Below, in pieces: positions 1 through 63,698 of a DNA stretch of 64,000 nt. How positions within the stretch are numbered: position 1 is the first letter of the stretch; the number at the start of each line of letters is the position of its first letter. The stretch spans positions 3,612 through 67,611 of the forward strand of contig MFTQ01000004.1 of the NCBI GenBank assembly GCA_001785355.1. The letters run 5' to 3'. Position numbers and translations under genes: made by a program. The notes beneath the pieces were generated by a model, which saw only the letters and a list, made by a program, of their open reading frames with translations, was not told where the DNA came from and did not search any database. This DNA comes from Candidatus Nomurabacteria bacterium RIFCSPHIGHO2_01_FULL_41_71 (GTDB taxonomy: Bacteria; Patescibacteriota; Minisyncoccia; Phycocordibacterales; UBA9973).

Positions 1-887
1 ATGTTCGTCTGGAGGAAGGTGGAGCCATGGATTATACCGTTGTTGTTTCCGCTGGAGCATCAGAGTCAGCTGCTCTTTCTTACGTAGCGCCATATGCAGG
101 AGTATCCATTGCGGAATATTTTATGGATAAGGGAAAAGATGTGTTGATTATCTACGACGACCTGTCGAAACATGCGGTAGCTTACAGAGAAATATCCCTC
201 CTTCTCCGTCGTCCGCCTGGCCGAGAAGCCTTTCCGGGAGATGTTTTTTATCTTCATTCTCGCCTGCTTGAGCGCGCTTGCCGAAGAAACCAAAAATACG
301 GGGGTGGGTCTATCACTGCGCTTCCCATTATTGAAACTCAAGCGGGAGATATTTCGGCCTATATTCCAACCAATGTAATTTCCATTACCGACGGGCAAAT
401 ATTTCTAGAGACCGATCTTTTCTATAAAGGTATTCGTCCGGCGGTAAATGTCGGCTCTTCCGTTTCCCGTGTAGGTTCTGCCGCCCAGATCAAGGCTATG
501 AAGAAAGTGGCAGGCACTTTGAAGCTCGATCTCGCGCAATACCGGGAGCTCGAAGCTTTCTCTCAGTTTGGTTCTGATTTGGATGAAGCAACCAAGCGGA
601 CCCTCGAGCGTGGCAAAAGGGCGGTGGAGGTATTGAAACAACCCCAATATTCTCCGGAAAAGACAGAACATCAAGTGGTATCCCTTTACGCGCTTTCCAA
701 AGGGTTTATGGATGATGTTCCGGTGAATAAGATAAAAGAATTTGAGCGCGGACTTATCGACCATGCGGAACGTCATGCGAAGGCTTTCTTTAAAGATATT
801 GCGGAAACAAAGATGTGGAGTGAAAAAGGCGAAATTGAGTTAAAGAAAGTAATTGAAGATTTCAAAAAAGGTTTTAGTAACACTTAG
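1..887 (+). CDS. atpA: ATP synthase F1 alpha subunit, C-terminal part (5' end outside window)
   Basis: ORF open from the window start. The sequence (…[47 protein letters not shown]…) is a typical F1 alpha C-terminal region. atpG, atpD and atpC follow. The TAG stop (885-887) lies inside the 23-bp palindrome. Confidence 0.9.
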
Positions 888-904
888 TACTCCGAGTACT
901 AAGT
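882..904. repeat. 23-bp perfect palindrome ACTTAGTACTCCGAGTACTAAGT, copy 1, overlapping the atpA stop codon
   Basis: Read directly. The left arm ACTTAGTACTC is the reverse complement of the right arm GAGTACTAAGT around a central C. An identical copy lies at 27346..27368. Confidence 0.85.
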
Positions 905-921
905 GGTTTAAGGCGAATTTT

Positions 922-7496: not shown

Positions 7497-8216
7497 ATGT
7501 TTTCAAATCATTTTGATTCGAATAATCTTCATCACGCGTATTTGATAGAAGGAGAAAGAATGAAAGCGTTATCGGAAATAATGCGATTTTTAGAAAGTAT
7601 CGACATTAAAACTTCCGGCAATGCCGACTTTTCTCTCATTTCTCTGGATTCTTTCAGTGTGGAAAATGCCAGAAATTTAAAATCTTTAAGCGTCGAAAAA
7701 AGCTTCTCCTCCAGTTTATCCGCGCAAGCAAATAAAAGAATTTTTATAATTTCAACCAATAATTTTCTTCTGGAAGCTCAAAACACTCTTCTGAAAATGT
7801 TTGAAGAGCCCATAGAAGACGTTATTTTTTTTCTGATAGTGCCGGACAAGAATGCTCTGCTTAAGACCCTTGCCTCCAGATTTTATGTGATTTCCTTGGA
7901 GCGGGCTTTGGGAGAGGAGGCGGAAATGGCAGATAAATTTTTAAATATGAGTTTACAAAAGAGGGTTGATTTTATAAAAGACCTTCTGATTGAAAACGAA
8001 GGGGAAGAAGAGGAGTTGGAAAAATCTGTCAGATTAAAGGCATTAAAATTTTTAAACGCCCTTGAACATATACTCCACAAAAAGTTAGTGTCAAGGACGG
8101 TCCTTGACATAGGTGTTTTTGAACATTTTTTCAAAGTTAGGAAATTTTTGCGTATGCCCGGGTCTTCTACCAAGAGTCTAATGGAATCCGTGGCGTTTTT
8201 AACTCCGAATTTATGA
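7497..8216 (+). CDS. holB: DNA polymerase III delta'-like clamp-loader subunit (no P-loop)
   Basis: HHAYLIEGE, followed by …NTLLKMFEEP…ASRF…, resembles delta prime. No Walker A is present. Confidence 0.45.
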   Translation: MFSNHFDSNNLHHAYLIEGERMKALSEIMRFLESIDIKTSGNADFSLISLDSFSVENARNLKSLSVEKSFSSSLSAQANKRIFIISTNNFLLEAQNTLLKMFEEPIEDVIFFLIVPDKNALLKTLASRFYVISLERALGEEAEMADKFLNMSLQKRVDFIKDLLIENEGEEEELEKSVRLKALKFLNALEHILHKKLVSRTVLDIGVFEHFFKVRKFLRMPGSSTKSLMESVAFLTPNL

Positions 8217-18521: not shown

Positions 18522-18732
18522 CCGGATAGAAGTTTCTAAAAGTAAAACAATCCGCACTAACCGGACTGGAGGAGAATTTGAACGTGAAATGGATCGACGA
18601 ATCACTGCAATTGGTGTCACTGATGCCTTTGCTGAACCTAGACAGTTCTCATTCAATCCGAACTATAATTTAAAAGACATGGACGTAATATGGGAGAAAA
18701 AAAAAGTATAGAGAATTATTTCTTTTAAAATG

Positions 18733-18848
18733 TGCTAAAATAAGGCTTGTTTATTAGATTAAGCAATCAAATTAAATCCTTCAAAAACACTATTCCACTT
18801 AAGAATCATTGTTTGTATAGTGTTCCACTCCAGGATTTGAAAGCCCGC
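18733..18848 (+). repeat. 116-bp direct repeat copy R1 (candidate structured sRNA)
   Basis: Aligns without gaps to 19843..19958 at 98/116 identity. It starts with TGCTAAAAT and contains the AACACTAT…ATAGTGTT hairpin. Confidence 0.7.
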
Positions 18849-19639: not shown

Positions 19640-19842
19640 ATGTCCCCCGTTACGCGGCTGTGCCCTATGGTCTGGCTTAATTGCCAGAGCTGTGAGCTGT
19701 ACCGCCGCATTCGAGCATTACTTTAACATACCTTTCAAATAAATCAAGGCCATAAGGTAATGTGAAAGCGGGCTTTCCATTTTTACTTTCTGTTCTATGA
19801 CTCAATAGTTAACCCCTTTAATTTTTAAAGGTAATTAAAGTA

Positions 19843-19958
19843 TGCTAAAATAAGGCTGGTTTATTAGATTAATTTACCAGATTAAAACCCTGGAAAACAC
19901 TATTCCATTTTATAACCATATTTTCTATAGTGTTCCAGTCCAGGATTTGAAAGCCCGC
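19843..19958 (+). repeat. 116-bp direct repeat copy R2
   Basis: 84% identical to R1. Substitutions at positions 48, 50, 51 and 96 create a CTGG/CCAG helix that R1 lacks. Confidence 0.7.
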
Positions 19959-27051: not shown

Positions 27052-27888
27052 AGTTTTTTTAAAATAAATTTTTTTAGACGCATCAAACCATTTGATATCT
27101 TTATCGCGTTTAAACCAGGTCATCTGACGCTTGGCATATTTGATAGTTTCCGTTATTACTTTTTCAGGAGTTGGATGAAAATATTCAAAGCCAAGTTCTC
27201 GTAGTCTATTTTCCGAAACGCCCGATTTCTTTAACTTTTCGATTTCTTTTAAAAGTCCCGTTTTAAACATTTTTTTTACACGTTTTTCCACCTTCTCTTT
27301 TAATTTTTCTGGAGGCAGATATAATCCAATTTTGATAAATTTATAACTTAGTACTCCGAGTACTAAGTGGGGGACTTTACCTAAGGCTTTGGCTATTTCA
27401 ATTGCCCTGATCAATCTGACTTTATTTTTTGGATCTATATTTTTTGCTCTATTTTTGTCTAACTTTATCAATATACGAAATAATACGGTCGCACTTTTTT
27501 GTGCCAATTTGCGGCGTAATTTTTTATCAAGAGGAACTGAGGGAAATTTTAATCCTTTTGTTACCGCATCGATATAGAATCCGGTACCACCGCAGATGAT
27601 CGGAATTTTACCTCGGCTGACAATCTCCGCCATAGCGGAGATTGTCAGCTTTTGATATTTTTCAACTGAAAATTTATTTTTCGGACTAATCACATTTAAC
27701 AAATGATGGGGTGTCCCCATCATTTGTTTTTTGGTAATTTTACCGGTACCAATATCGAGCCCCTTATAGACTTGTCTCGAATCGGCCGAAATTATTTCGC
27801 CACCGATTTTTCCGGCAATTTTCACCGCTAAATCACTTTTACCAGTGGCGGTTTGGCCTAAAATGACGATTACTTTCGGTTTTTTCAT
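27040..27888 (-). CDS. miaA: tRNA dimethylallyltransferase
   Basis: P-loop ILGQTATGKS and ADSRQVYKGLDIGT. It carries the 23-bp palindrome in-frame. Confidence 0.85.
   Translation of the reverse strand: MKKPKVIVILGQTATGKSDLAVKIAGKIGGEIISADSRQVYKGLDIGTGKITKKQMMGTPHHLLNVISPKNKFSVEKYQKLTISAMAEIVSRGKIPIICGGTGFYIDAVTKGLKFPSVPLDKKLRRKLAQKSATVLFRILIKLDKNRAKNIDPKNKVRLIRAIEIAKALGKVPHLVLGVLSYKFIKIGLYLPPEKLKEKVEKRVKKMFKTGLLKEIEKLKKSGVSENRLRELGFEYFHPTPEKVITETIKYAKRQMTWFKRDKDIKWFDASKKIYFKKTLYY
27346..27368. repeat. 23-bp perfect palindrome, copy 2, in-frame within miaA (encodes HLVLGVLS)
   Basis: Identical to 882..904. Translated on the minus strand in the miaA frame: CCC CAC TTA GTA CTC GGA GTA CTA AGT. 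Confidence 0.85.
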
Positions 27889-32403: not shown

Positions 32404-32446
32404 ATAGCCAGCAACACCCGAAAGGAGTATGTTCGCTGGCTATTTT
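32402..32446 (+). terminator. hairpin AAATAGCCAGC…GCTGGCTATTT plus T-run after the 31903 gene
   Basis: An 11-bp stem, a 22-nt loop and TTTTAATT. Confidence 0.4.
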
Positions 32447-32501
32447 AATTGTCTACGGAAATCAACATATGTGTTTTTCGGTAGACATTACAAAACAAAC
32501 A

Positions 32502-32541
32502 CATGTCGTGAATTTGCGCATATGCGCAAATTCACGACATG
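32502..32541. terminator. 40-bp perfect palindrome CATGTCGTGAATTTGCGCAT|ATGCGCAAATTCACGACATG between convergent genes
   Basis: Read directly. It lies 8 nt past the topA stop and is followed on the minus strand by GTTTGTTTTG. Confidence 0.4.
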
Positions 32542-32548
32542 GTGAAAT

Positions 32549-34798
32549 TTACTTCATCTTGTTCAATTTATCCGGACGGAAATTTGGGCAATCTTTTTTA
32601 CTGCATCGCTCGGGGATGGTTTTAGTGCCTTCCATCATGAGAGATCCGCATTCGGGGCAAATTTTACCGGTGGGTTTGGCCTTAATGGCAAACTTGCAAT
32701 TTGGATAGTTGGAACAAGAATAAAAAATTCCAAATCTTCCGCGCCGCTCACTAATATCGCCTTTCTTGCAAAGCGGGCAAACGACACCGGTGCGTTTTTT
32801 TGACTCCTCGGCTTCGTCTTTTTTAATGAATTTACATTTTGGATAGCGCGAACATGAAACAAAAGTGCCGGATCCGTCGCGGCGTTCTTTGATGATCAGT
32901 TTGCCAATTTCAGGTATTTTTTTCCTCCCCGCCTTTGCCGAGACTTCGGCGGACGCAGCGCATTCCGGACATATTTCTCCGGTTTCTTTCGGTCCTTTCA
33001 GTTCTGTGCCGTCGAGCATCAAGGCTCCGTCACAATCGGGATATTTTGAACAAGAATAAAATTTTCCCCCGCGGGAAAGTTTTATAATCATCGAATTCCC
33101 GCATTTTGGGCATTTTATGTTATCCGGCGCCAAACCGAGATTGGTGGCTTTTTCCAATTTTTCCTTGCTTTTTACATCTTTTAAAAAAGGAATATAAAAA
33201 TCTTTTAAGGTTTTTTCATATTCGCGCTCTCCTCTTGAAATTTCGTCCAATTCGTTTTCCATTTCTGCCGTAAAAGTGTCGGAAATATAATTCGCAAAAT
33301 GAGTTTCTAAAAAATCCGAAACTACTTCACCCACATCGGTGGGGAATAATGTTTTATTTTCTTTTCTGACATAATCCCGCTCTTCTATTGTTCTCATGAT
33401 CGAGGCATAGGTGCTGGGTCTGCCGATTCCGCGCTGTTCAAGCTCTTTGACAAGTCCAGCCTCGCTGTATCTCCCCGGGGGTTCGGTAAATTTTTCTTCC
33501 TTATTTAGATTCAACAATTTTAATTTTTCTCCGGAAGCGCATTTTGGAAGCTCCACATCTTCGCCTCCGGCATCTTTGTCCGCTTGAAGCCATCCGGGAA
33601 AGAGAAGACGGGAGCCGATGGCTGAGAAATCCGGCAAATCCTCGTGATTTATGATTTTTGCCGAAATTTTAGTTTTCAATAATTTTGCGTCTGCCATTTG
33701 AGAAGAAACAGCTCTCTCCCAGATGAGGCGATAAAGCCTGCTCTGCTCGTCGGCGCCCACTTGTAGTTTATTTATATGAGTGGGTCGAATGGCTTCATGC
33801 GCTTCTTGGGCGTTCTTTGATTTGGTTTTATAAATTCTCGCTTGCGCGTATTTTTCCCCGTATTCTTTTTTTATAAATGATATGATTTGTTCTCGGGCAG
33901 TTGAAGATAAATTAGTGCTGTCTGTTCTCATGTAAGTAATATGTCCCGCTTCATACAATTTCTGGGCTATCTGCATAGTGCGAGAAGGAGAGAAGCCCAA
34001 GCGCGAGCTTGCCGTCTGCTGGAGAGTAGAAGTAGTGAATGGAGCCCTAGGAGAACGTTTTTGTTCCGATTCTTTTACATCACTGACAATCCAATCTCCG
34101 TTTTCTCCGGCTTTTATAATTTTTTCAACCAATTTTTCGTCTCTTGGTTCTTCGGAACAATTCAGAATAATTCTGTCTTTATGTTCTGTTTCAAAAATTC
34201 CGTGAATTCTCCAAAATTTTTCCGGAATGAAAGCTCTGATTTCGCGCTCGCGTTCCATGATTATCCGCAAAGCCGGAGATTGCACTCGTCCGGCAGAAAG
34301 GCCGTATCTGACTTTTTTCCAGATAAGGCCGGAAAGATCGTATCCCACCAGACGGTCCAGCACTCGTCTAGCTTCCTGGGCTCGACGCAGAGCGGTATTT
34401 ATTTCCCTCGGATGCTTCAGCGCTTCTTCCACGGCTTTTTTGGTAATTTCATTGAAAGCCACTCTTTTTATTGAGGATTTTATTTTTTTGTCTTCTTTAA
34501 GCAATGTCTCGATATGCCAAGCAATGGCTTCTCCTTCACGGTCCGGGTCAGTGGCCAAAATTATCTCACTCGCTTTCTCGGCTAAATTTTTAAGTTCATA
34601 AACCACTTTTTCTTTTCCTTTCGATATTTCATAACGCGGAACGAATCCCGCTTCTATGTCAATGGCTGTTTTGTTGGATTTAGGCAAGTCACGGATGTGT
34701 CCCACCGAAGCGCGCACGGTAAAAGAGCCTTCCAGATATTTTTCTATTGTCCTCGCTTTCGACGGCGACTCGACAACAAGCAATCTCATATTTGCCAA
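32549..34798 (-). CDS. topA: DNA topoisomerase I with C-terminal zinc ribbons
   Basis: TOPRIM N-terminus LLVVESPSKARTIEKYLG, the active-site region, and multiple CxxC…CxxC ribbons. Confidence 0.9.
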   Translation of the reverse strand: MANMRLLVVESPSKARTIEKYLEGSFTVRASVGHIRDLPKSNKTAIDIEAGFVPRYEISKGKEKVVYELKNLAEKASEIILATDPDREGEAIAWHIETLLKEDKKIKSSIKRVAFNEITKKAVEEALKHPREINTALRRAQEARRVLDRLVGYDLSGLIWKKVRYGLSAGRVQSPALRIIMEREREIRAFIPEKFWRIHGIFETEHKDRIILNCSEEPRDEKLVEKIIKAGENGDWIVSDVKESEQKRSPRAPFTTSTLQQTASSRLGFSPSRTMQIAQKLYEAGHITYMRTDSTNLSSTAREQIISFIKKEYGEKYAQARIYKTKSKNAQEAHEAIRPTHINKLQVGADEQSRLYRLIWERAVSSQMADAKLLKTKISAKIINHEDLPDFSAIGSRLLFPGWLQADKDAGGEDVELPKCASGEKLKLLNLNKEEKFTEPPGRYSEAGLVKELEQRGIGRPSTYASIMRTIEERDYVRKENKTLFPTDVGEVVSDFLETHFANYISDTFTAEMENELDEISRGEREYEKTLKDFYIPFLKDVKSKEKLEKATNLGLAPDNIKCPKCGNSMIIKLSRGGKFYSCSKYPDCDGALMLDGTELKGPKETGEICPECAASAEVSAKAGRKKIPEIGKLIIKERRDGSGTFVSCSRYPKCKFIKKDEAEESKKRTGVVCPLCKKGDISERRGRFGIFYSCSNYPNCKFAIKAKPTGKICPECGSLMMEGTKTIPERCSKKDCPNFRPDKLNKMK

Positions 34799-37033: not shown

Positions 37034-37891
37034 ATGGCGAGAAAAGGCGTTTTAAATTCTTCCCGTCTGCGCGATCTCAAAAAAAAACGACGCATGATTT
37101 TGGGTACAAAGATTGCTCTTGCGGCTTTGGCTTTTTTGGTTTTGCTTTGGATACTTGCTTACGTTGCCAGACTTCCGGCGTTTAATATTTCTGAAATTAA
37201 AATTTCCGGAGAAAAGGCGGTGGATACAGAAAGCATAACGGAAGTAGTTGAAAAAAACTTGAAGACAAAACACCTTTGGATTTTCCCGAAGTCCAATTTT
37301 CTTCTCCTTCCGAAGAATCAAATAAAAAAAGAGCTTATGGTTGAATTTTCCAGACTTGAGAATGTTTCCTTCAATCTTCAGAATTTGCGAACCTTGCTTG
37401 TTTCGGTATCCGAAAGGGAAAACAAATATATCTGGTGCGGCGCGAATATGGAAATCGAGTTTTCTGAAAATTCAGAAAAAGGATGTTTTTTTATGGATGC
37501 GAGCGGATATGTCTTCGATCAAGCCCCGTATTTCTCCGGCGATGTGTATTTCAGATTTTTTGGCGCGCTAAAAGAAAATTATTTTTTTCCGGAAGTCTTC
37601 GGCAAATTTATATCGTTCATAGATGTTCTGCCTCGCTTTGGGTTTGTGCCGGTGTCCCTGTACTCAAAGATCGACGGCGATATAGAGATTCATCTTTCTT
37701 CGGATTCTTCATATTTAAACTCGCCAAAAATAATTTTTAAAAAAAATTCTGACTTGGAGAAAATCTCCGAAAATCTCCAAGCGGCGCTTGATACGGAACC
37801 TCTCCGTACGGAACTCAAAAACAAGTATTCTTTTCTTCAATATATTGATTTAAGATTCGGAAATAAAGTTTATTATAAATTCGATGAATGA
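37034..37891 (+). CDS. FtsQ/DivIB-like cell-division protein (POTRA)
   Basis: N-terminal TM, then FNISEIKISGEKAV…, a POTRA-like start. Confidence 0.4.
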   Translation: MARKGVLNSSRLRDLKKKRRMILGTKIALAALAFLVLLWILAYVARLPAFNISEIKISGEKAVDTESITEVVEKNLKTKHLWIFPKSNFLLLPKNQIKKELMVEFSRLENVSFNLQNLRTLLVSVSERENKYIWCGANMEIEFSENSEKGCFFMDASGYVFDQAPYFSGDVYFRFFGALKENYFFPEVFGKFISFIDVLPRFGFVPVSLYSKIDGDIEIHLSSDSSYLNSPKIIFKKNSDLEKISENLQAALDTEPLRTELKNKYSFLQYIDLRFGNKVYYKFDE

Positions 37892-38882
37892 ATTGGGATT
37901 TTGGAAAAAACTTAAAAAACCTGTTTTTTGCCTGGCGCCCATGGCGGATGTCACAGACTGCGCATTTAGGCAGATAATCGCAAAATATGGGAAGCCGGAT
38001 ATCTTTTGGACGGAGTTCGTCTCTGCCGACGGATTATGTTCTCCGGGAAAAGAAAAGATTCTTGTTGATTTAAAATACGAAGAAAACGAGCGTCCAATAG
38101 TGGCGCAAATATTCGGCGGTAAGCCTGAAAACATAAAGAAAGCAGTTTCTTTGTGCCGAAAACTTGGTTTTGACGGAGTGGACATAAATATGGGCTGTCC
38201 GGACCGCTCTGTAGAGAAGCAATACGCCGGGGCGGCCATGATGAAAAATAAAAACCTTGCCCGTGAAGTTATCAAAGCGGCCAAGGAAGGAGCTCGCGGA
38301 TTGCCGATCTCGGTAAAAACCCGCTTGGGATACAATCAGATTGATTTAGAATGGATACGCTTTCTTCTGGAAGAAGATTTAGCGGCGCTTGCCGTTCATC
38401 TACGTACTCGCAAAGAAATGTCCGATGCCCCCGCTCATTGGGAATTTATGAAAAAAATAATTCAAATTCGAGATGAAATGAAGAAGGAGACATTTATCAT
38501 CGGCAATGGCGATGTCGTAGACATAAACGACGCTAAGAAAAAATGTAAAGAAACAGGTTGCGACGGAGTGATGCTAGGTAGGGCGATATTCGGAAATCCA
38601 TGGCTATTTGTAAAATGTCAAAGAGACACTTTGACACCAGACTTGTCAAAGTGTCTCTTTGACAAGTCTATAAAAGAAAAATTAAAAGTGTTGGTGGAAC
38701 ACACGAAACTTTTTGAAAAAATGCTCGGAAAACAAAAAAATTTTGCCATTATGAAGAAACATTATAAAGCTTATGCAAATGGCTTTGACGACGCCAAGGA
38801 ACTTAGAATGAAATTAATGGAAACAGAAAACGCCGGGCAAGTGGAAACTATCGTTAATAATTTTTTTAATAAAATTACCTAA
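37884..38882 (+). CDS. dus: tRNA-dihydrouridine synthase
   Basis: LAPMADVTDCAFRQI and NMGCPD with the catalytic Cys. It carries the TGTCAAAG palindromes in-frame. Confidence 0.85.
   Translation: MNELGFWKKLKKPVFCLAPMADVTDCAFRQIIAKYGKPDIFWTEFVSADGLCSPGKEKILVDLKYEENERPIVAQIFGGKPENIKKAVSLCRKLGFDGVDINMGCPDRSVEKQYAGAAMMKNKNLAREVIKAAKEGARGLPISVKTRLGYNQIDLEWIRFLLEEDLAALAVHLRTRKEMSDAPAHWEFMKKIIQIRDEMKKETFIIGNGDVVDINDAKKKCKETGCDGVMLGRAIFGNPWLFVKCQRDTLTPDLSKCLFDKSIKEKLKVLVEHTKLFEKMLGKQKNFAIMKKHYKAYANGFDDAKELRMKLMETENAGQVETIVNNFFNKIT
38616..38664. repeat. inverted pair of 21-bp palindromes (TGTCAAAGAGACACTTTGACA / TGTCAAAGTGTCTCTTTGACA), in-frame in dus
   Basis: The two halves are exact reverse complements separated by CCAGACT. 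They encode KCQRDTLTPDLSKCLFDK. Confidence 0.8.
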
Positions 38883-38961
38883 CTCTACCGGTCGAAAAAG
38901 TTAGGTAATTTAAAAACTTAAACAGTTTTGATAAAACCATATTTTGAGTTAGAATAATACG

Positions 38962-50546: not shown

Positions 50547-53468
50547 ATGATTTCAAGGATATATGTGACAGAAAAGGGGAAAGTCAATTTCCTTTATTCT
50601 TATCTTCTTTCACATAATTTTTCGCGTGAAGAAATATTAAAAATAGCCAGCGCCCTTACCAATCCCATTCTTGAAGAATTTTCAATAGATAAATTTCCGG
50701 ACGTTGGACATCCGACGTCTTTTACTTATGCGATTGAAATTGGTTTTAAGCCGGGTGTTACGGACAACATCGCTCACACCGTCAAAGAAACTATTGGAGA
50801 TCTGTTGCATTTAAAAGAAAATTCGTTCGCTGTCTACACATCGAAAATCTATTTAATTTATAAGAAAATAGACAGAACAGGGGCGGAGAAGATCGCTTTT
50901 TCTCTTCATAATCCTCTAATTGAAAGAGCAAATATATTCAACGCAAAAGAAATAAAAAAAACAAAAAGTTTACCAGACGATGTTCCTGAAGTATTTTTAA
51001 AGAAGTCTGACTTGGTTATTAAAATTCCGCTCGGGCTCGAGGACATGGAGCTGGAGAAAATAGGCAGGGAAGGAATAATGGACGATACAAATACGCGTAG
51101 AGGACCTCTTGCTCTCGATCTCCCTTCTATGAAAGCTATTCGATCATATTTCAGTAAAAAAAATAGAGATCCAAATGATATAGAAATCGAAGCCCTTGCC
51201 CAGACCTGGTCCGAACATTGCAAACACACTATTTTCGCAAACCCGATAGATGATATAAAAGACGGCTTGTATAAAACTTATATAAAAGGGGCGACTAATG
51301 AAATAAGAAAAAAGAAAGGGAGGAATGATTTTTGCGTTTCTGTTTTTTCTGACAATGCCGGAGGAATAATTTTCGACAAAAACTATTTAATAACCCATAA
51401 AGTTGAAACACACAACAGCCCTTCGGCCTTGGATCCATTTGGTGGAGCAATCACTGGCATCGTGGGGGTAAATCGAGATACTATCGGATTCGGATTAGGA
51501 GCTAAGCCGGTAGCGAATACTTACGGATTTTGTTTCGGCAATCCCAATGATAAAAAAGAATATTTTAAAGATAAAAATTTAAAACAGAAAATGTTATTGC
51601 CAAAGAGGATCATGGAAGGAGTTATCAAAGGAATAAACGTTGGAGGTAATTGTTCCGGAATTCCAACTCTTTCTGGTTTTATAAAATTTGATGATCGTTA
51701 TCGAGCCAAACCCATGGTTTTTGCCGGCACTGTGGGACTTTTGCCTCGCAAAATAGGAAAAAAACTATTGCATGAAAAAAAAGCGGAAACGGGGGGTTAT
51801 ATCGTTGTTGTGGGGGGGAGGGTTGGATTGGATGGAATTCATGGAGCGACATTTTCATCTGTCGCCATAGACTCTAATTCTCCCACAAGCGCTGTGCAAA
51901 TCGGCGACCCGATTACCCAAAAAAAGTTAAGCGACGCGATAGTAAAAGAGGCTCGCGATATGAACTTATACAATAGCATTACGGACAATGGCGCGGGGGG
52001 TTTGTCCTGCTCGGTGGCGGAAATGGCTAAAGAATGCGGAGGCGCAAAAGTTTTTTTAGAAAAAGTCCCTCTTAAATATCCCGGCTTGCGACCTTGGGAA
52101 ATTTGGATTTCAGAATCACAAGAACGTATGACTCTCTCGGTGCCAAAGAAAAAATGGAAGAGATTTTACAATCTTATGCAAAGCCGCGGCGTGGAAGCGG
52201 CAGTAATAGGAGAATTCACGAATTCCGGAAAAGTTATCGTAAAATATAAAGGCAAAGTGATAATGGATATAGATATGGAATTCTTGCACAATGGTTTACC
52301 TAAACATCATCTAACAACACAGCCGATAATTCGAACCCACTTAGAGCCTAAAATACTGAAACACGGATCACTTACTGGAATCTTAGAAAAGTTGCTTGGA
52401 AAAAATAATTTGCGCGGATTTTCTTTTATTTCCGAACAATATGACCATGAAGTGCAGGCATCTTCCGTTTTAAAGCCATTATCCGGGCGAGGAAGAATAA
52501 ATACCGATGCGCAAGTTTTCCGACCCGTTCTCTCGTCTAACAGGGGAGTCGTCTTATCAGAAGCTTTATATCCTTCATATTCCGACATCAATACTTATCA
52601 TATGGCCGCCTGCGCGCTAGACACCGCCGTAAGAAACGCGATTTGCGCGGGGGGCACAATGTCGCACCTTGCTCTCTTAGACAATTTTTGTTGGTATTCT
52701 TCAAATGATCCAACACGTCTAGCCGAATTAAAAGACGCTGTAAAAGCCTGCTATGATTATGCGGTCGGATATGGCACTCCATTTATTTCCGGCAAAGACA
52801 GCATGTTTAACGATTTTAAAGGCTACGATTCCAAAGGAGATCCGGTAGCCATTTCTATTCCACCAACACTTTTAATTTCCGCTATTGGGGTAATGCCTGA
52901 TTTTTATAAAGCTGTTTCGCCGGAGTTTAAAAATACTGGCGATGTAATTTATTTATTAGGAGAAACATATGATGAATTGGGCGGAAGTGAATATTATAAA
53001 ATGTTTGGTTTTGTTGGAAACAATGTGCCAAAAGTTAATTTAGAAAAAAATCTAAAAACTTATTTGGCGCTCGAAAAAGCGATAAAGAAAGAACTGATCG
53101 CCTCTGCGATCTCGGTCGCTTCCGGTGGGCTTGGCATAACGCTCGCCAAAGCCTGTATCGGCGGAATGCTCGGCTGCAACGTTTCATTTGCCAAGGTTGC
53201 CAAATGTTGCCAAAGCAAGGCTTTGGCAACTTCCACAGAGGTGAAGCTTTTTTCCGAAAGCCAGGGAAGGATATTAGTATCAGTATCTCCTAAAAATATA
53301 AAACAATTTGAAAAAACATGCATAGGAGTTTCCTATGCAAACTATGCAAAATTGGGAGAAGTTTCAAGGGACGGAAAGGTAATAATCACGGAGGGAAGAA
53401 ATAAAATAGTTGAAACTAGTGTAAAAAAATTACATGATATTTACCACAGATTTTCAAAAAATATATGA
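50547..53468 (+). CDS. purL: FGAM synthase PurL with an N-terminal PurS-like extension (purSL fusion)
   Basis: GFKPGVTDNIAHTVKE resembles PurS. WSEHCKH and the AIRS-like domains follow. 973 aa. Confidence 0.85.
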   Translation: MISRIYVTEKGKVNFLYSYLLSHNFSREEILKIASALTNPILEEFSIDKFPDVGHPTSFTYAIEIGFKPGVTDNIAHTVKETIGDLLHLKENSFAVYTSKIYLIYKKIDRTGAEKIAFSLHNPLIERANIFNAKEIKKTKSLPDDVPEVFLKKSDLVIKIPLGLEDMELEKIGREGIMDDTNTRRGPLALDLPSMKAIRSYFSKKNRDPNDIEIEALAQTWSEHCKHTIFANPIDDIKDGLYKTYIKGATNEIRKKKGRNDFCVSVFSDNAGGIIFDKNYLITHKVETHNSPSALDPFGGAITGIVGVNRDTIGFGLGAKPVANTYGFCFGNPNDKKEYFKDKNLKQKMLLPKRIMEGVIKGINVGGNCSGIPTLSGFIKFDDRYRAKPMVFAGTVGLLPRKIGKKLLHEKKAETGGYIVVVGGRVGLDGIHGATFSSVAIDSNSPTSAVQIGDPITQKKLSDAIVKEARDMNLYNSITDNGAGGLSCSVAEMAKECGGAKVFLEKVPLKYPGLRPWEIWISESQERMTLSVPKKKWKRFYNLMQSRGVEAAVIGEFTNSGKVIVKYKGKVIMDIDMEFLHNGLPKHHLTTQPIIRTHLEPKILKHGSLTGILEKLLGKNNLRGFSFISEQYDHEVQASSVLKPLSGRGRINTDAQVFRPVLSSNRGVVLSEALYPSYSDINTYHMAACALDTAVRNAICAGGTMSHLALLDNFCWYSSNDPTRLAELKDAVKACYDYAVGYGTPFISGKDSMFNDFKGYDSKGDPVAISIPPTLLISAIGVMPDFYKAVSPEFKNTGDVIYLLGETYDELGGSEYYKMFGFVGNNVPKVNLEKNLKTYLALEKAIKKELIASAISVASGGLGITLAKACIGGMLGCNVSFAKVAKCCQSKALATSTEVKLFSESQGRILVSVSPKNIKQFEKTCIGVSYANYAKLGEVSRDGKVIITEGRNKIVETSVKKLHDIYHRFSKNI

Positions 53469-55718: not shown

Positions 55719-56250
55719 AAAAAAATTAGTACTGATGGTTCATGAGGGAGGTAGTCACACTAATTTAAAGACAATACGAAGGGCGGTTGATGCCGGTAAA
55801 ATTAATGCGGAAATTTCCGCGGTAGTTTCTGATAAAGAGAACGCGATACCGGTATTGGAGAAAATGTCCCCGGACTATATATGTCTCGCTGGTTGGAAGA
55901 AAATTATTCCTAAAAAAATTATAAAAGAATATAAGAACAAAATCTTAAATATACATCCGGGTTTAATTCCTGATACAGTCAACGAAAAAGTGAAAAATCC
56001 TGACGACACGGAAGCTTTGTGGAATAAAGAAATGTATGGTAATAAAGCCGTTCAGAATTTTTTAGATCGGAAAGCAACTTTTGCCGGCTCTTCTATTCAT
56101 TTTTTAACCCTTGACTTTGATTTTGGGCCGGTTTTAGGGAGAACTTTTGAAAAAATTCAAATTAATGATACTGTTGAATCTCTATATGCACGGCTCAAAA
56201 AAAAAGAAAATGAGTTATATGTGGAGATTTTAGAAAAATTAACTCAATGA
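55699..56250 (+). CDS. purN: phosphoribosylglycinamide formyltransferase
   Basis: NIHPGLIP motif, within the pur operon. Confidence 0.7.
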   Translation: MMSQTSKKKLVLMVHEGGSHTNLKTIRRAVDAGKINAEISAVVSDKENAIPVLEKMSPDYICLAGWKKIIPKKIIKEYKNKILNIHPGLIPDTVNEKVKNPDDTEALWNKEMYGNKAVQNFLDRKATFAGSSIHFLTLDFDFGPVLGRTFEKIQINDTVESLYARLKKKENELYVEILEKLTQ

Positions 56251-57599
56251 AAAAACAAAAAATTTTAATAATCGGTGCGGGTGGGGGCAGGGAACATGCG
56301 ATCGGGTGGAAAATAGCGCAGTCGCCGAGAGCGGGGAAATTATTTTTTGCGCGAGGAAATGCCGGTACGGCAGAGCTTGGAACCAATCTAGAAATTAAAG
56401 AGAGGGAAATTTCAAAACTTATTGATTTCGCAAAAAACGAAAAAATAGATTTGACTTTGGTTGTAGCAGATGAGCCATTAGCACTCGGTGTCGTGGATGA
56501 ATTTAAGAAAAATAATTTGCGAGTCTGGGGCCCGACCAAGGTAGCCGCACAAATAGAATGGTCCAAAGCGTATTCCAAGAATTTTATGCGCAAACACAAT
56601 TTACCGACGGCCAGATTTGAAATATTTAGTAATTTTGAGAAGGCAAAAGCTTACTTGGAGGCAAGGCCTCCACTTGGAGGCCTTGCCTCCAAGTCCTCCC
56701 TTGTAATTAAGGCAAGCGGACTGGCGCTCGGTAAGGGAGTAGTGATAGTAAAAACACTTTCAGAATCCCTGCAAACACTTGAAGAGATGATGATAAAAAA
56801 AGTTTTTGGCGGCGCGGGCAATGAAGTGGTGATCGAAGAATTTTTGACAGGCCCGGAAATTTCCATTCATGTATTTTCCGACGGAAAAACATATAAAATA
56901 TTTCCAGCTTCTCAAGATCATAAAAAAATTGGAGAAAGAGATACGGGGCTGAACACCGGAGGAGTGGGTGTTGTTGCTCCGCTCCCTTTCATGAATAAAG
57001 AAATGATGCAAAGAATTGAAAAAGAAATTATTGCGCCTACCATAAAAAATCTCAATGCCGAAGAACCATTTGTGGGAATACTTTATCCCGGTCTTATGCT
57101 CACGCCCGACGGTCCGAAAATTCTGGAATTCAACGCGCGCTTCGGCGACCCGGAAGCGGAAGCTTATATGAGGCTTTTAGACACGGATCTGCTCGATATA
57201 GTAGACGCTTCTATTGATGGAAAATTGGAGGAAGTTGAAGTCAGATGGAAAAATAAATTTGCTTGCAATGTTGTGCTTTGCTCCGGCGGGTACCCGGGGA
57301 GTTATGAGAAGGAAAAAATAATTTCGGGGGTGTGTCAAAGAGTCTCTTTGACAAAAGATTCTATGTCAAAGAGTCTCTTTGACAATGACGACGACATCGT
57401 TATTTTTCACGCTGGCACCAAAATAAATGAGAGAGAACAATTGGTCACTAACGGCGGACGGGTGCTTGGAGTTTCGGCATTGGGAAATTCTTTAGAAGAA
57501 GCGCTAGAAAAAGCCTACAAGACTATTGAAAAAATTTCGTTCGAGGGAATGCAATATAGAAGAGATATTGGTAAAAAAGCTCTAGAAATGATAAAATAA
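56247..57599 (+). CDS. purD: phosphoribosylamine--glycine ligase
   Basis: ILIIGAGGGREHA and an ATP-grasp domain. It carries the 40-bp element and two TGTCAAAGAG palindromes in-frame. Confidence 0.85.
   Translation: MKKQKILIIGAGGGREHAIGWKIAQSPRAGKLFFARGNAGTAELGTNLEIKEREISKLIDFAKNEKIDLTLVVADEPLALGVVDEFKKNNLRVWGPTKVAAQIEWSKAYSKNFMRKHNLPTARFEIFSNFEKAKAYLEARPPLGGLASKSSLVIKASGLALGKGVVIVKTLSESLQTLEEMMIKKVFGGAGNEVVIEEFLTGPEISIHVFSDGKTYKIFPASQDHKKIGERDTGLNTGGVGVVAPLPFMNKEMMQRIEKEIIAPTIKNLNAEEPFVGILYPGLMLTPDGPKILEFNARFGDPEAEAYMRLLDTDLLDIVDASIDGKLEEVEVRWKNKFACNVVLCSGGYPGSYEKEKIISGVCQRVSLTKDSMSKSLFDNDDDIVIFHAGTKINEREQLVTNGGRVLGVSALGNSLEEALEKAYKTIEKISFEGMQYRRDIGKKALEMIK
56654..56693. repeat. 40-bp nested palindromic element, copy 2, in-frame within purD
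   Basis: CTTGGAGGCAAGGCCTCC-ACTT-GGAGGCCTTGCCTCCAAG. The inner arm loops (AAG, CTT) are swapped relative to copy 1. It encodes LEARPPLGGLASK. Confidence 0.85.
57333..57384. repeat. two direct copies of the 21-bp perfect palindrome TGTCAAAGAGTCTCTTTGACA, in-frame in purD
   Basis: Copies at 57333-57353 and 57364-57384, separated by 10 bp. They encode CQRVSLTKDSMSKSLFDN. Confidence 0.8.
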
Positions 57600-61988: not shown

Positions 61989-63698
61989 ATGATTTTGCGT
62001 AGATTCAAAAAAAATCGAATAAAAAATACCCTGGTAGATCCGGATGAGATATTTCTGGATTCTACCAATCTTCAAAATTTCGATCGTCAACAATTTGAAG
62101 GTCGAATAGAAAAACCAATTTCCAAAAAAACCGCCGCGGGATTGGGAATCTTTTTTTTAATTTTTATTTTGACTTTTCTGGGCAGATTGGGATATCTGCA
62201 AATCAAAAAAGGAGAAGCCTATTATAAAAGAAGTGAAAACAACACCCTAGAGAGAGCCATTATTTTCGCCGAAAGGGGAATAATTTACGACAGAAATAAG
62301 AAGGAACTTGCATGGAATCAAAAAATGGGGCATGAAGGGGGAGGAGGCAGTAAATTCGGCATACGCGCATATTTAAAAGATGGTTTCGCGCATCTTTTGG
62401 GTTATGTAAGCTATCCGGCGCAAGATAAATCCGGGAATTATTGGCAGGGAGAATTTAAAGGAATTGATGGACTGGAAAAACAATATGACACCATTCTTCA
62501 AGGTAAAAATGGTTCAAAAATAGTTGAAAGAGACGCTTATGGAAAAATTCATTCGGAAAATATAGTAAATGCTCCAAAAAGGGGACAAGATTTGATAACC
62601 GCCATAGATGCTTCAATACAGGCAAAATTATTTTCTCTAATTAAAGAAGCTTCCCAAAAAAGTACTTTCGTCGGCGGAGCAGGAATACTTCTTGATGCCA
62701 AAAACGGCGAAGTATTGGCCGTCACAAGTTATCCGGAATACGATCCAGAAATATTGTCTTTGGGGAAAGACACAAAGATAATAAACGGCTATCTTGCCGA
62801 TAAACGCGGAGTTTTTATAGATAGAACTATTTCCGGGTTGTATGCTCCAGGTTCGATAGTTAAACCTATTTTCGCGCTTGGCGCCCTTGTCGAAAATATT
62901 ATCAATCCTAAAAAAGAAATTCTGTCGATTGGTGAAATTTCTATACCTAATCCCTATATCAAAGGAGAATTTTCTGTTTTTAAAGATTGGAAAGCTCACG
63001 GTTGGACAAATATGCAAGAAGCTCTGGCGGTATCATCGGATGTATATTTTTATACAATCGGAGGCGGTTTTGAAAGTCAAAAAGGTCTGGGTATATCCAA
63101 TCTGGAAAAATATGCTCGGCTCTTCGGTGTCGGAGAAAAAACAGGAATAGACCTGCCAGATGAAAAAAGCGGCACTATCCCGAGTCCTGAATGGAAAGAA
63201 AAAAATTTCAAAGGAGATCCATGGCGCATCGGAGACACTTACAATACCTCTATCGGGCAGTATGGCTTCCAGGTGACTCCCATGGAAATGTCTCGGGTGG
63301 CGGCAGCTATTGCAAACGGTGGCACATTGATATCTCCCCATATTATGAACTTGGAGGCCTTGCCTCCAAGTGGAGACCTTGTCTCAAAATTAGATTTTAA
63401 CAAAGAATATTTAGATATAGTGCACGAGGGCATGAGAGGAGCGGTAACATACGGCACGGCGGTAGCGCTCAATGTGCCATATGTAAAAGTAGCGGCCAAA
63501 ACCGGAACCGCGGAACTTGGACTCGCAAAAAATAAAATTAATTCCTGGGTAATCGGATTTTTCCCATATGAAAATCCGCGATATGTATTTACAATTTTAA
63601 TGGAATCCGGACGAGCATCCGGTCTCATTAGCGCTTCTTCAATAATGCGAGACCTTTTGGACTGGATGTATATAAACACGCCGGAATACCTAAAGTAA
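61989..63698 (+). CDS. mrdA: penicillin-binding protein 2 (class B transpeptidase)
   Basis: SIVKP (SxxK), SSD (SxD) and KTGTAE. It carries a decayed copy of the 40-bp element. Confidence 0.8.
   Translation: MILRRFKKNRIKNTLVDPDEIFLDSTNLQNFDRQQFEGRIEKPISKKTAAGLGIFFLIFILTFLGRLGYLQIKKGEAYYKRSENNTLERAIIFAERGIIYDRNKKELAWNQKMGHEGGGGSKFGIRAYLKDGFAHLLGYVSYPAQDKSGNYWQGEFKGIDGLEKQYDTILQGKNGSKIVERDAYGKIHSENIVNAPKRGQDLITAIDASIQAKLFSLIKEASQKSTFVGGAGILLDAKNGEVLAVTSYPEYDPEILSLGKDTKIINGYLADKRGVFIDRTISGLYAPGSIVKPIFALGALVENIINPKKEILSIGEISIPNPYIKGEFSVFKDWKAHGWTNMQEALAVSSDVYFYTIGGGFESQKGLGISNLEKYARLFGVGEKTGIDLPDEKSGTIPSPEWKEKNFKGDPWRIGDTYNTSIGQYGFQVTPMEMSRVAAAIANGGTLISPHIMNLEALPPSGDLVSKLDFNKEYLDIVHEGMRGAVTYGTAVALNVPYVKVAAKTGTAELGLAKNKINSWVIGFFPYENPRYVFTILMESGRASGLISASSIMRDLLDWMYINTPEYLK
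63350..63385. repeat. 40-bp palindromic element, degenerate copy 3, in-frame within PBP2
   Basis: CTTGGAGGCCTTGCCTCC-AAGT-GGAGACCTTGTCTC. The left arm is intact and the right arm is decayed. It encodes LEALPPSGDLVSK. Confidence 0.65.

What the first reader, a model, noticed from the sequence alone, without database searches (positions are those of the whole stretch)
38616..38664. Third palindrome family (TGTCAAAGAG…CTCTTTGACA) embedded in-frame in dus and twice in purD
dus carries an inverted pair of 21-bp near-palindromes at 38616..38664, encoding KCQRDTLTPDLSKCLFDK. purD carries two identical direct copies of the perfect palindrome TGTCAAAGAGTCTCTTTGACA at 57333..57384, encoding CQRVSLTKDSMSKSLFDN. 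This family is unrelated in sequence to the 40-bp and 23-bp elements. With it, purD hosts two different element families. This genome appears unusually permissive to palindromic in-frame inserts. TTGTCAAAG also resembles operator half-sites bound by dimeric regulators, so the sites may act as intragenic protein-binding sites.
Basis: seen in the sequence. Interest (0 to 1): 0.65.

Follow-up and report, generated by a model that had tools for sequence, protein, structure and literature searches.

The report
REP-like hairpin repeats inside CPR genes
The palindromes in dus and purD are real in-frame insertions of a small mobile hairpin repeat (REP/REPIN type), and related Nomurabacteria carry its partner RAYT transposase gene bracketed by the same hairpins; this is a new family of a known kind of element, not a regulator binding site.

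Summary
Close orthologues lack these segments, and both segments fall in predicted low-confidence coil.

The unit is a 46-57 bp inverted doublet. In 51 distinct copies from candidate phyla radiation (CPR) genomes and metagenomes, the two N5 centres are exact reverse complements in 41, with 17 different centre sequences. The whole element therefore forms a 21-bp-stem hairpin.

The same hairpins bracket a ~210-aa Y1/HUH transposase gene (Pfam Y1_Tnp; best NCBIfam hit REP-associated tyrosine transposase). This held in all eight distinct closely related (64-74% identical) loci I read. In seven of them the gene sits next to gyrA. 104 of its 120 best homologues end in a hairpin-encoded peptide. One flanking hairpin equals the dus arm and another equals the purD arm.

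There are no target-site duplications. I therefore read these as REP/REPIN-type elements of a CPR RAYT. In-frame copies survive because two of three frames are stop-free and the sites are tolerant loops.

In-frame intragenic REPs are already described in other bacteria, so this is a new member of a known kind. The operator idea is not supported. The window organism's own RAYT was not found.

The parts
38616..38636 (.). REP-like hairpin, arm 1 of the dus doublet (stem TGTCAAAG/CTTTGACA, centre AGACA)
   Evidence: Read directly. Folds as an 8-bp stem with a 5-nt loop, -6.5 kcal/mol. Identical to both hairpins that flank the RAYT gene in L075.
38644..38664 (.). REP-like hairpin, arm 2 of the dus doublet; exact reverse complement of arm 1 (centre TGTCT)
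   Evidence: arms 100% complementary, 7 nt apart.
38616..38664 (.). REPIN-like inverted doublet (49 bp) in frame in dus, encoding CQRDTLTPDLSKCLFD (Dus residues 245-260)
   Evidence: As single-stranded DNA it forms a 21-bp-stem hairpin, -23 kcal/mol, z -9.0. Absent from orthologues P0015, P0018, P0103, P0104, P0111 and P0024. Lies in the pLDDT<50 coil 233-260 between the TIM barrel and the helical domain.
57333..57353 (.). REP-like hairpin, arm 1 of the purD doublet (centre AGTCT)
   Evidence: Identical to the hairpin that overlaps the stop codon of the RAYT gene in L089/L091.
57364..57384 (.). REP-like hairpin, arm 2 of the purD doublet (identical to arm 1; 20 of 21 complementary to it)
57333..57384 (.). 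REPIN-like doublet (52 bp, spacer AAAGATTCTA) in frame in purD, encoding CQRVSLTKDSMSKSLFD (PurD residues 363-379)
   Evidence: Hairpin of -19.1 kcal/mol, z -6.9. Differs at 2 of 52 nt from the Dus element of L007. None of 21 aligned PurD orthologues has it at this site. About 13 extra residues against PDB 2YW2. Lies in the pLDDT<50 coil 365-380.
8089..8109 (.). Single variant hairpin TGTCAAGGACGGTCCTTGACA in frame in holB (DNA pol III delta'), encoding VSRTVLD
   Evidence: The same stem variant (TGTCAAGG/CCTTGACA) flanks the RAYT genes of L073 and L077. It sits at the same HolB position as the doublets in L013, L032, L033 and L054.
53208..53228 (.). Possible degenerate member in purL (TGCCAAAGCAAGGCTTTGGCA, a compensated stem variant); membership uncertain
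   Evidence: The same TGCCAAAG/CTTTGGCA variant forms the inner stems of an element in L043. Not checked against PurL orthologues.
37884..38882 (+). Host gene dus (tRNA-dihydrouridine synthase, 332 aa)
   Evidence: Pfam PF01207, 217.8 bits.
56247..57599 (+). Host gene purD (phosphoribosylamine-glycine ligase, 450 aa)
   Evidence: Pfam GARS_N, GARS_A and GARS_C. 100% identical to Candidatus Nomurabacteria proteins in NCBI.
7497..8216 (+). Host gene holB (DNA polymerase III delta', 239 aa)
   Evidence: Pfam PF13177, 63.2 bits.

Best explanation
These are REP/REPIN-type elements. The basic unit is a 21-nt hairpin: an 8-bp stem TGTCAA(A/G)G...C(T/C)TTGACA around a variable 5-nt centre. It usually occurs as an inverted doublet of 46-57 bp that can fold, as single-stranded DNA, into one hairpin with a 21-bp stem.

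Their partner is a ~210-aa Y1/HUH tyrosine transposase of the RAYT type. In related Nomurabacteria/Paceibacterota its gene sits at a conserved position next to gyrA and is bracketed by the same hairpins.

Inferred mechanism, by homology with E. coli TnpA-REP and IS200/IS605 TnpA and not shown here: the enzyme recognises the folded hairpin on single-stranded DNA, cuts and rejoins it through its catalytic tyrosine, and so spreads copies without target-site duplication.

In these small, gene-dense genomes many copies land in genes. Survivors are those that keep the reading frame, use one of the two stop-free frames (the third frame meets TGA inside CTTTGACA), and fall in loops that tolerate 14-17 extra residues. 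The dus, purD and holB copies in this window are such survivors. The peptides CQRxxLT...SKxxFD are a by-product of the DNA palindrome and are not selected modules.
For: Shown here:
1. Real in-frame inserts. They are absent from close orthologues and lie in pLDDT<50 coil.
2. Family spread. The double pattern gave 21 loci in 185,579 species genomes, all but two named as CPR lineages (Nomura-, Doudna-, Portnoy-, Saccharibacteria). It gave 45 metagenome loci.
3. Doublet structure. The two 5-nt centres are exact reverse complements in 41 of 51 distinct elements, with 17 different centres. The search pattern left the centres free, and the chance of a match is 1/1024 per element. Two variants (L017 near 7575, L043 near 9745) have stem changes that keep the long hairpin but break the small ones.
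4. Mobility between genes. The purD element differs at 2 of 52 nt from a Dus element in L007. Hosts include Dus, TypA/BipA, HolB, MnmA, LeuRS, UvrA, RNase HII, UppP and PurD, plus intergenic DNA.
5. Partner enzyme. In L059 two doublets flank a 212-aa ORF. It matches Pfam Y1_Tnp at 46.7 bits (cut-off 23). Its best NCBIfam hit is REP_Tyr_transpos at 68.8 bits. Its only PDB hit is E. coli TnpA-REP 4ER8, with the HUH and Tyr motifs aligned. LMPNHFHL and YIHxNxV (the NPV proline is conserved in at least 90%) are invariant in 17 homologues.
6. Generality of the bracket. All eight distinct loci of the closely related RAYTs (64-74% identical: L059, L062, L073, L075, L077, L078, L080, L089) have a family hairpin 9-21 nt before the ATG and family-hairpin sequence running across or beginning at the stop codon; in L080 that copy is degenerate. 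L075's flanks equal the dus arm. L089's 3' flank equals the purD arm.
7. Wider proxy. 104 of the 120 best homologues carry a hairpin-encoded peptide in their last 16 residues, and 60 end exactly in VKxx[L/I]. The control rate is 113 of 1037 windows elsewhere in the same proteins.
8. Conserved position. The gene lies between a methyltransferase gene and gyrA in seven distinct organisms. GyrA identity (63-68%) is similar to RAYT identity (64-72%), which fits vertical inheritance.
9. No target-site duplication. 41 of 48 elements have no direct repeat at their ends.
10. Precedent. RAYT genes flanked by REPs, and in-frame REP dimers inside genes including uvrA and tRNA synthetase genes, are described in PMC3733652. 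Single-copy, vertically inherited RAYTs are described in PMC5581495.
Against: - No RAYT gene lies in the 64-kb window (tblastn), and I could not locate the window organism's own copy. The link rests on relatives.
- The NCBIfam match is below that model's equivalog cut-off (68.8 against 80), and the PDB match is weak (E 0.12).
- The hairpins lack the GTAG or CGTC tag of the described REP superfamilies. They are symmetric, unlike classical REPs.
- Copy number per genome is unknown. I saw only about 3-5 copies in 75 kb of this organism's contig.
- The window's copies carry four different centres (AGACA, AGTCT, ACGGT, and CCCGT just outside the window). They do not look like one recent burst.
- No cutting or transposition activity has been shown for this enzyme family.
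- A more distant RAYT (L025, 45% identical) is flanked by a different hairpin, although that genome also has TGTCAAAG doublets.
Confidence: 0.75

Rival explanations
1. The transposase gene plus its two flanking hairpins is an ordinary autonomous IS200/IS605-type insertion sequence. The short doublets are then its deletion derivatives (palindrome-associated transposable elements), not a domesticated RAYT with REPINs.
For: Same enzyme superfamily (Pfam Y1_Tnp). Hairpins lie at both ends of the gene. The NCBIfam RAYT model is matched below its cut-off. In L062 the gene is not next to gyrA.
Against: The gene keeps the same chromosomal position, methyltransferase | RAYT | gyrA, in seven organisms whose GyrA proteins are only 63-68% identical. 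A jumping IS would not. No second copy appeared in any fetched locus. IS200/IS605 ends are normally two different hairpins, whereas here they are the same.
Confidence: 0.1
2. The doublets are miniature inverted-repeat elements (MITEs). They would be two 21-bp terminal inverted repeats of a cut-and-paste DDE transposon with almost nothing between them.
For: Perfect 21-bp inverted arms with a short spacer. The same element occurs in unrelated genes.
Against: No target-site duplication in 41 of 48 elements. No DDE transposase was seen beside any copy. Single hairpins occur alone, in holB and at four places in the loci fetched by the doublet pattern and at further sites in the RAYT loci. Each arm is itself a hairpin that brackets a Y1 transposase gene.
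Confidence: 0.04
3. The sites are operators or binding sites for a host dimeric DNA-binding protein (a regulator or nucleoid protein), kept within genes for that function.
For: Two conserved 8-bp half-sites separated by a non-conserved 5 bp resemble a dimer site. The stems are conserved across distant CPR lineages. TTGACA matches the sigma-70 -35 hexamer.
Against: Binding to each 21-mer does not explain why the two centres are reverse complements in 41 of 51 elements. It also does not explain stem variants that preserve only the long hairpin. Host genes are functionally unrelated. The scan of 38400-38900 that contains the dus copy gave two promoter-like matches (shuffles give 1.3 on average), neither using the element, and no terminator-like site. 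Presence at one site varies among close relatives.
Confidence: 0.04
4. The palindromes arise locally by replication template switching (quasi-palindrome correction or inverted duplication) at fragile spots. No transposition would be involved.
For: The arms are perfectly complementary. The same protein loops are hit again and again, also by unrelated palindromes.
Against: The same 16 stem bases and near-identical spacers (AARRATTCTA, which covers the purD, L007 and L018 spacers) occur in different genes and genomes. Hairpins that flank a transposase gene are identical to the dus and purD arms. Local template switching would not recreate one sequence family. It could still help to keep the arms perfect.
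Confidence: 0.04
5. The inserted peptides (CQRxxLT...SKxxFD) are selected protein modules, and the DNA palindrome is secondary.
For: The peptide pattern recurs at the same position in Dus, TypA and HolB orthologues.
Against: The variable residues are set by the complementary centres; for example CP pairs with GT in P0007 (inferred by back-translating the peptide). The same DNA is read in other frames elsewhere (MSKxxFD twice, or VKxxL-stop in RAYT) and occurs in intergenic DNA. The segments are predicted as low-confidence coil. Close orthologues function without them.
Confidence: 0.03

Closest known systems
REP/REPIN-RAYT systems of Proteobacteria (E. coli TnpA-REP with REP/BIME; Pseudomonas REPINs; 'REPtrons')
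   Same: Short hairpin repeats, commonly as inverted doublets that form a longer hairpin. A Y1/HUH transposase gene is bracketed by the same repeats. The gene sits at a conserved chromosomal position, consistent with vertical inheritance. There is no target-site duplication.
   Different: The host is CPR/Patescibacteria. The hairpin is symmetric, AT-rich and only 21 nt, with no GTAG or CGTC tag. Doublets are 46-57 bp with 4-15-nt spacers (a spacer region separates the two REPs of a REPIN, PMC3337134; from my own recollection, not read here, classical REPINs are roughly 70-110 bp). The 5-nt centre differs between genomes. The RAYT stop codon lies inside the 3' hairpin. About two thirds of the copies found are inside genes, not extragenic. 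The NCBIfam RAYT model is matched below its cut-off.
Intragenic GTAG/CGTC REPs (Opitutus terrae, Thauera and others) described by Di Nocera et al. 2013 (PMC3733652)
   Same: REP monomers and dimers inserted in frame in genes of known function, including uvrA and tRNA synthetase genes, adding about 20-30 residues. Here UvrA, LeuRS, HolB, Dus and PurD are hosts.
   Different: A different sequence family and phylum. Here recurrent use of the same loop by orthologues, and by unrelated palindromes, is prominent.
Rickettsia palindromic elements (RPEs)
   Same: Palindromic repeats inserted in frame in housekeeping genes of a small-genome bacterium. From my recollection of the RPE papers, not read here, the added segments are thought to lie on protein surfaces.
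   Different: From my recollection, most RPEs are longer (about 100-150 bp) and their mobilising enzyme is not established. According to PMC3733652 only RPE-4 and RPE-6 correspond to CGTC-type REPs. Here a candidate transposase is directly associated.
IS200/IS605 insertion sequences and their palindrome-associated derivatives (PATEs)
   Same: The same transposase superfamily. Sub-terminal hairpins are recognised as single-stranded DNA. There is no target-site duplication.
   Different: The gene stays at one syntenic position across organisms. Its two flanking hairpins are the same family, not distinct left and right ends. No TnpB partner was seen.

Membership tests
REP/REPIN-RAYT system | Short (about 20-40 nt) palindromic repeat present in multiple copies per genome | tested here: inconclusive
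   The repeat is a 21-nt hairpin, with 4 canonical and 1-2 variant copies in the window. One more lies 3 kb beyond the window on the same contig. Several copies occur per 20 kb around RAYT genes. Whole-genome copy number could not be counted.
REP/REPIN-RAYT system | REPs commonly paired in inverted orientation so that the pair forms a hairpin (REPIN) | tested here: met
   41 of 51 doublets have exactly complementary centres. The single-stranded DNA folds give -23 and -19 kcal/mol, z -9.0 and -6.9.
REP/REPIN-RAYT system | A Y1/HUH transposase (RAYT) gene flanked by the same REPs | tested here: met
   Met in relatives: eight distinct loci, with flanks identical to the dus and purD arms in L075 and L089. 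104 of 120 homologues end in hairpin-encoded peptide. Not shown for the window organism itself; there is no RAYT in the window.
REP/REPIN-RAYT system | HUH motif and catalytic tyrosine; sequence membership in the curated RAYT family | tested here: inconclusive
   HFH and YIHxNxV are invariant, with the NPV proline in at least 90%, and align with E. coli TnpA-REP. Pfam Y1_Tnp is passed. NCBIfam REP_Tyr_transpos scores 68.8 bits, below its cut-off of 80.
REP/REPIN-RAYT system | RAYT is single-copy and vertically inherited | tested here: inconclusive
   Conserved position next to gyrA in seven organisms, with divergence similar to GyrA. Copy number per complete genome was not testable.
REP/REPIN-RAYT system | GTAG or CGTC tetranucleotide tag at one end of the REP (superfamilies of PMC3733652) | tested here: not met
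   The ends are TGTC...GACA on both sides. No GTAG or CGTC is present, and only a purine preference is seen at position -1.
REP/REPIN-RAYT system | Predominantly extragenic location | tested here: not met
   By my count, about 33 of 49 CPR doublets lie in long ORFs of recognisable genes. Intragenic REPs are nevertheless documented exceptions.
REP/REPIN-RAYT system | The RAYT binds and cleaves its REP as single-stranded DNA | not testable with these tools
   Needs biochemistry.
DDE-type MITE | Terminal inverted repeats plus a target-site duplication of fixed length | tested here: not met
   Inverted arms are present, but 41 of 48 elements have no flanking direct repeat and none has a recurrent length.
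Rickettsia palindromic elements (RPE) | Sequence membership in the RPE-1 to RPE-10 families of Rickettsia | not tested
   No sequence comparison was made. The exact double pattern was found almost only in genomes named as CPR lineages. The resemblance is in behaviour (in-frame palindromic inserts), not in family membership.
Operator for a dimeric transcription factor | Sites placed at promoters of a regulon; spacer sequence free of constraint | tested here: not met
   The sites lie inside unrelated housekeeping genes. The centres are constrained to be complementary between neighbouring sites. No promoter-like site uses the dus copy.

The most novel reading that the evidence does not exclude
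In CPR bacteria, RAYT-REPIN systems may do more than litter the genome. They may repeatedly rewrite the same few surface loops of essential proteins (Dus, TypA, HolB, LeuRS, MnmA, PurD). This could work through insertion that is targeted to existing hairpin-coding sites, so that one element replaces another. Such turnover would act as a standing source of loop variation, or of intragenic hairpins with a role in mRNA or replication. It would make these uncultured lineages a natural system for seeing how REPIN-type elements choose targets and reshape proteins.
Probability: 0.1. Interest if true: 0.7.

Novelty: new member of a known kind. Interest (0 to 1): 0.4.

Why it matters
It explains odd in-frame palindromes in uncultured CPR genomes with a concrete mechanism that can be tested: a RAYT-type transposase and its hairpin repeats.

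REPIN-RAYT systems have been characterised mainly in Proteobacteria. I found no paper in the held library that links them to CPR/Patescibacteria.

Two practical consequences follow. These inserts inflate and vary protein lengths in CPR annotation. The hairpins are likely to break metagenome assemblies; most contigs that carry the RAYT gene are short.

Different palindromic elements occupy the same protein loops again and again. This gives a compact data set for asking whether tolerance or targeting decides where such elements persist.

Tried and rejected
- The topA hit (33443-33452) is ordinary coding sequence, not an element.
- Rfam found only three tRNAs in the window and no RNA family at the sites.
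- No promoter-like site uses the dus copy and no terminator-like site lies in the region scanned around it, 38400-38900.
- I looked for a sigma-70 promoter formed by the hairpin's TTGACA plus the TATAAT often seen just before the RAYT start. The spacing is wrong in most loci, so I dropped it.
- I tried to find the window organism's own RAYT in four ways: tblastn of the window, extending the contig 10 kb past the window end, matching samples of RAYTs P0349 and P0288, and cluster names. None linked a RAYT to this organism.
- Two non-CPR matches to the double pattern (L010 from bacterium UASB270 and L016 from Caldilineaceae) have non-complementary centres and no convincing gene context. I left them out of the statistics.
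- The idea that every genome has one private 5-nt centre holds in several genomes (PLYC01 exactly, CAZKPK01 for its two exact-pattern doublets, CAYIEM01 to within one base, L077, L078). It does not hold for the window organism, which has four.
- A neighbour-joining tree of Dus interleaves element-bearing, empty and other-insert orthologues. It has no support values and is only suggestive.
- Four literature searches for RAYT, REPIN or in-frame palindromes in CPR found nothing relevant, and a term look-up inside one HUH-endonuclease survey found no mention of CPR lineages.
Full report
**1. The observation**

- In dus (37884-38882, Pfam Dus), TGTCAAAGAGACACTTTGACA lies at 38616-38636. Seven bases later comes its exact reverse complement, at 38644-38664.
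- In purD (56247-57599; GARS_N, GARS_A, GARS_C), TGTCAAAGAGTCTCTTTGACA occurs twice, at 57333-57353 and 57364-57384, ten bases apart.
- The decamer TGTCAAAGWG occurs 9 times against 0.21 expected. The 21-mer pattern occurs 4 times against 0.01 expected.
- The ninth decamer, in topA, is plain coding sequence.

- The clear one is a single hairpin, TGTCAAGGACGGTCCTTGACA, in frame in holB at 8089-8109.
- The doubtful one is in purL at 53208-53228.

**2. The segments are inserts**

The organism is a CPR bacterium (Candidatus Nomurabacteria) from Rifle groundwater.
- In an alignment of 26 Dus proteins, six orthologues at 70-76% identity have six to nine residues where the window has twenty. Eleven carry a peptide of the type CQRxxLT...SKxxFD there. 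Nine carry other, unrelated inserts at the same place.
- In PurD, none of 21 orthologues has the window's segment. Most have nothing there, and several have different inserts. The window protein has about 13 extra residues against the solved PurD 2YW2.
- AlphaFold models place the Dus insert (residues 245-260) in a coil of pLDDT<50 between the TIM barrel and the helical domain.
- The PurD insert (363-380) falls in a pLDDT<50 coil in an otherwise confident model.

**3. Anatomy**

Both inserts are read in the same way. The first hairpin reads TGT CAA AG. and the second reads xTG TCA AAG. The third frame would meet TGA inside CTTTGACA. On either strand, then, two of the three frames are open.

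As single-stranded DNA, each doublet folds into one hairpin with a 21-bp stem. The energies are -23 and -19.1 kcal/mol, with z-scores of -9.0 and -6.9.

**4. The family elsewhere**

I scanned for two TGTCAAAG-N5-CTTTGACA units 2-16 nt apart.
- The scan gave 21 loci among 185,579 species genomes. All but two are named as CPR lineages: Nomura-, Doudna-, Portnoy- and Saccharibacteria, plus records named only Parcubacteria or Patescibacteria group bacterium.
- It gave 45 metagenome loci.
- Of 51 distinct elements, 41 have centres that are exact reverse complements of each other, with 17 different centre sequences. The search left the centres free, so this is a real signal.
- What is maintained is therefore the long inverted repeat. 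Two variants fit this reading: their stem changes keep the long hairpin but break the small ones.
- Spacers are mostly 4, 6, 10, 12 or 14 nt.
- By my count, about two thirds of the CPR copies lie in long ORFs of recognisable genes. They recur at the same positions: Dus (11 loci), TypA/BipA (8, in both Saccharibacteria and Nomurabacteria), HolB (4, plus the window's single hairpin), MnmA (3), LeuRS (2), UvrA, RNase HII, UppP and PurD.
- The window's purD element differs at only 2 of 52 nt from the Dus element of another Nomurabacteria genome, L007, and has a near-identical spacer. The element has therefore moved between unrelated genes.
- 41 of 48 elements have no direct repeat at their ends. 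This argues against a DDE-type MITE.

**5. The partner enzyme**

One metagenome contig, L059, has two doublets in opposite orientation around a 212-aa ORF.
- The ORF matches Pfam Y1_Tnp at 46.7 bits, above the cut-off of 23.
- Its best NCBIfam family is REP-associated tyrosine transposase, at 68.8 bits and below the cut-off of 80.
- Its only PDB match is E. coli TnpA-REP (4ER8), weak but with the HUH and tyrosine motifs aligned.
- It has 7,248 homologues at E<=0.001. The named ones among the best 120 are Nomurabacteria or Paceibacterota, and JGI calls several of them RayT.
- LMPNHFHL and YIHxNxV (the NPV proline is conserved in at least 90%) are invariant in an alignment of 17.

I read DNA around seven further homologues.
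- Every one has a family hairpin 9-21 nt before the start codon.
- Every one also has family-hairpin sequence running across or beginning at the stop codon, with TGA inside CTTTGAca in most. In L080 that copy is degenerate (TGTTAAAG), and in L077 it starts inside a TAG stop.
- The flanks in L075 are identical to the dus arm.
- The 3' flank in L089 is identical to the purD arm, and its 5' flank is the complementary-centre partner.

Because the 3' hairpin is translated, the protein tail reports it.
- 60 of the 120 best homologues end in VKxx[L/I].
- 104 of the 120 carry a hairpin-encoded peptide in their last 16 residues. The control rate is 113 of 1037 windows elsewhere in the same proteins.

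In seven distinct organisms the gene lies between a methyltransferase gene and gyrA.
- Their GyrA proteins are 63-68% identical to L059's.
- Their RAYTs are 64-72% identical to L059's.
- This is what vertical inheritance at a fixed locus predicts.

**6. Interpretation**

A hairpin repeat, often as an inverted doublet, bracketing a Y1 transposase gene at a conserved locus is the defining arrangement of REP/REPIN-RAYT systems (PMC5581495, PMC3733652). I therefore read the finding as REP/REPIN-type elements of a CPR RAYT.

Two parts of this reading are inferred, not shown.
- The mobilisation step (hairpin recognition on single-stranded DNA, tyrosine-mediated cutting and joining) is inferred from the homologous enzymes.
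- The in-frame state is best explained by selection: only copies that keep the frame, avoid the TGA frame and sit in tolerant loops survive in a gene-dense genome.

The same loops also host unrelated palindromes in other lineages.
- An example is a GC-rich one in PurD P0137, at -31.9 kcal/mol.
- Element-bearing, empty and other-insert Dus orthologues interleave in a rough tree.
- These observations point to repeated turnover at a few permissive or preferred sites.

**7. Limits**

- No RAYT lies in the window, and I could not find this organism's own copy.
- The hairpins lack the GTAG/CGTC tags of the described REP superfamilies.
- The NCBIfam match is below its cut-off.
- Genome-wide copy number is unknown.
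- The window's copies have four different centres.
- A more distant RAYT (L025, 45% identical) is flanked by a different hairpin.

**8. Comparison and novelty**

In-frame REP monomers and dimers inside genes, including uvrA and tRNA synthetase genes, are already described for GTAG/CGTC REPs. That paper identifies RPE-4 and RPE-6 of Rickettsia as REPs of the CGTC type (PMC3733652).

No paper in the held library connects RAYTs or REPINs with CPR/Patescibacteria.

This is therefore a new family of a known kind. Its distinctive traits are:
- a very compact, symmetric hairpin;
- a variable but self-complementary centre;
- a RAYT stop codon inside the repeat;
- a mostly intragenic distribution.

Noticed in passing
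window 9005-9048, 56653-56694, 63349-63391: The '40-bp' family (ACTTGGAGGCCTTGCCTCCA-CT-TGGAGGCAAGGCCTCCAAGT) has the same build as the TGTCAAAG family: two small hairpins with complementary centres forming one long hairpin. The purD copy adds 8 residues absent from all 21 aligned orthologues and sits in a pLDDT<50 loop. No partner gene was sought.
   Followed up: partly
window 882-906 and 27346-27370: Two identical 25-nt copies of ACTTAGTACTCCGAGTACTAAGTGG (the '23-bp' family). One lies at the atpA/atpG junction and one inside miaA. They share the outer ACTT...AAGT with the 40-bp family, and with the second dus hairpin plus its flanks (gACTTGTCAAAG...CTTTGACAAGTc).
   Followed up: no
window 32502-32541: A perfect 40-bp palindrome, CATGTCGTGAATTTGCGCATATGCGCAAATTCACGACATG, just downstream of topA, next to a second imperfect palindrome at 32443-32494. 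Unrelated in sequence to the three families.
   Followed up: no
window 18725-18848 and 19835-19958: A 124-nt direct repeat at 84% identity, 1.1 kb apart.
   Followed up: no
L086 14961-14981 (same contig, about 3 kb beyond the window end): Another single variant hairpin, TGTCAAGGCCCGTCCTTGACA, inside a 120-aa ORF with no Pfam match.
   Followed up: no
L075 10609-10629, L078, L089 7159-7179 and other RAYT loci: The RAYT stop codon is the TGA inside CTTTGAca of the 3' hairpin, so half of the 120 best homologues end in V-K-x-x-L/I. The two middle residues report the 5-nt centre; for example VKGHL means GGCAT and VKETL means AGACA. Protein databases alone can thus type the repeat.
   Followed up: yes
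L095 (PurD P0137) and alignments A1 and A2: The same Dus and PurD loops carry other palindromic inserts in other Paceibacterota. The peptide NLPPLIRG(G/S)REG appears in both a Dus (P0016) and a PurD (P0137). The P0137 insert folds at -31.9 kcal/mol. Several unrelated element families seem to share a few hot spots.
   Followed up: partly
L025 about 5100-5900 (Doudnabacteria PLYC01000020.1): A RAYT 45% identical to L059's is flanked by a different hairpin, ACTGGAAGAAGG..CCTTCTTCCAGT. The same genome also has four TGTCAAAG doublets in intergenic DNA. More than one RAYT-repeat pair per genome is possible.
   Followed up: no
L073-L094, upstream of the RAYT gene: A conserved block of four to five T4SS_pilin-domain genes and an SBP_bac_1 gene precedes the methyltransferase-RAYT-gyrA segment in the seven loci fetched through the RAYT protein whose upstream DNA was covered.
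   Followed up: no
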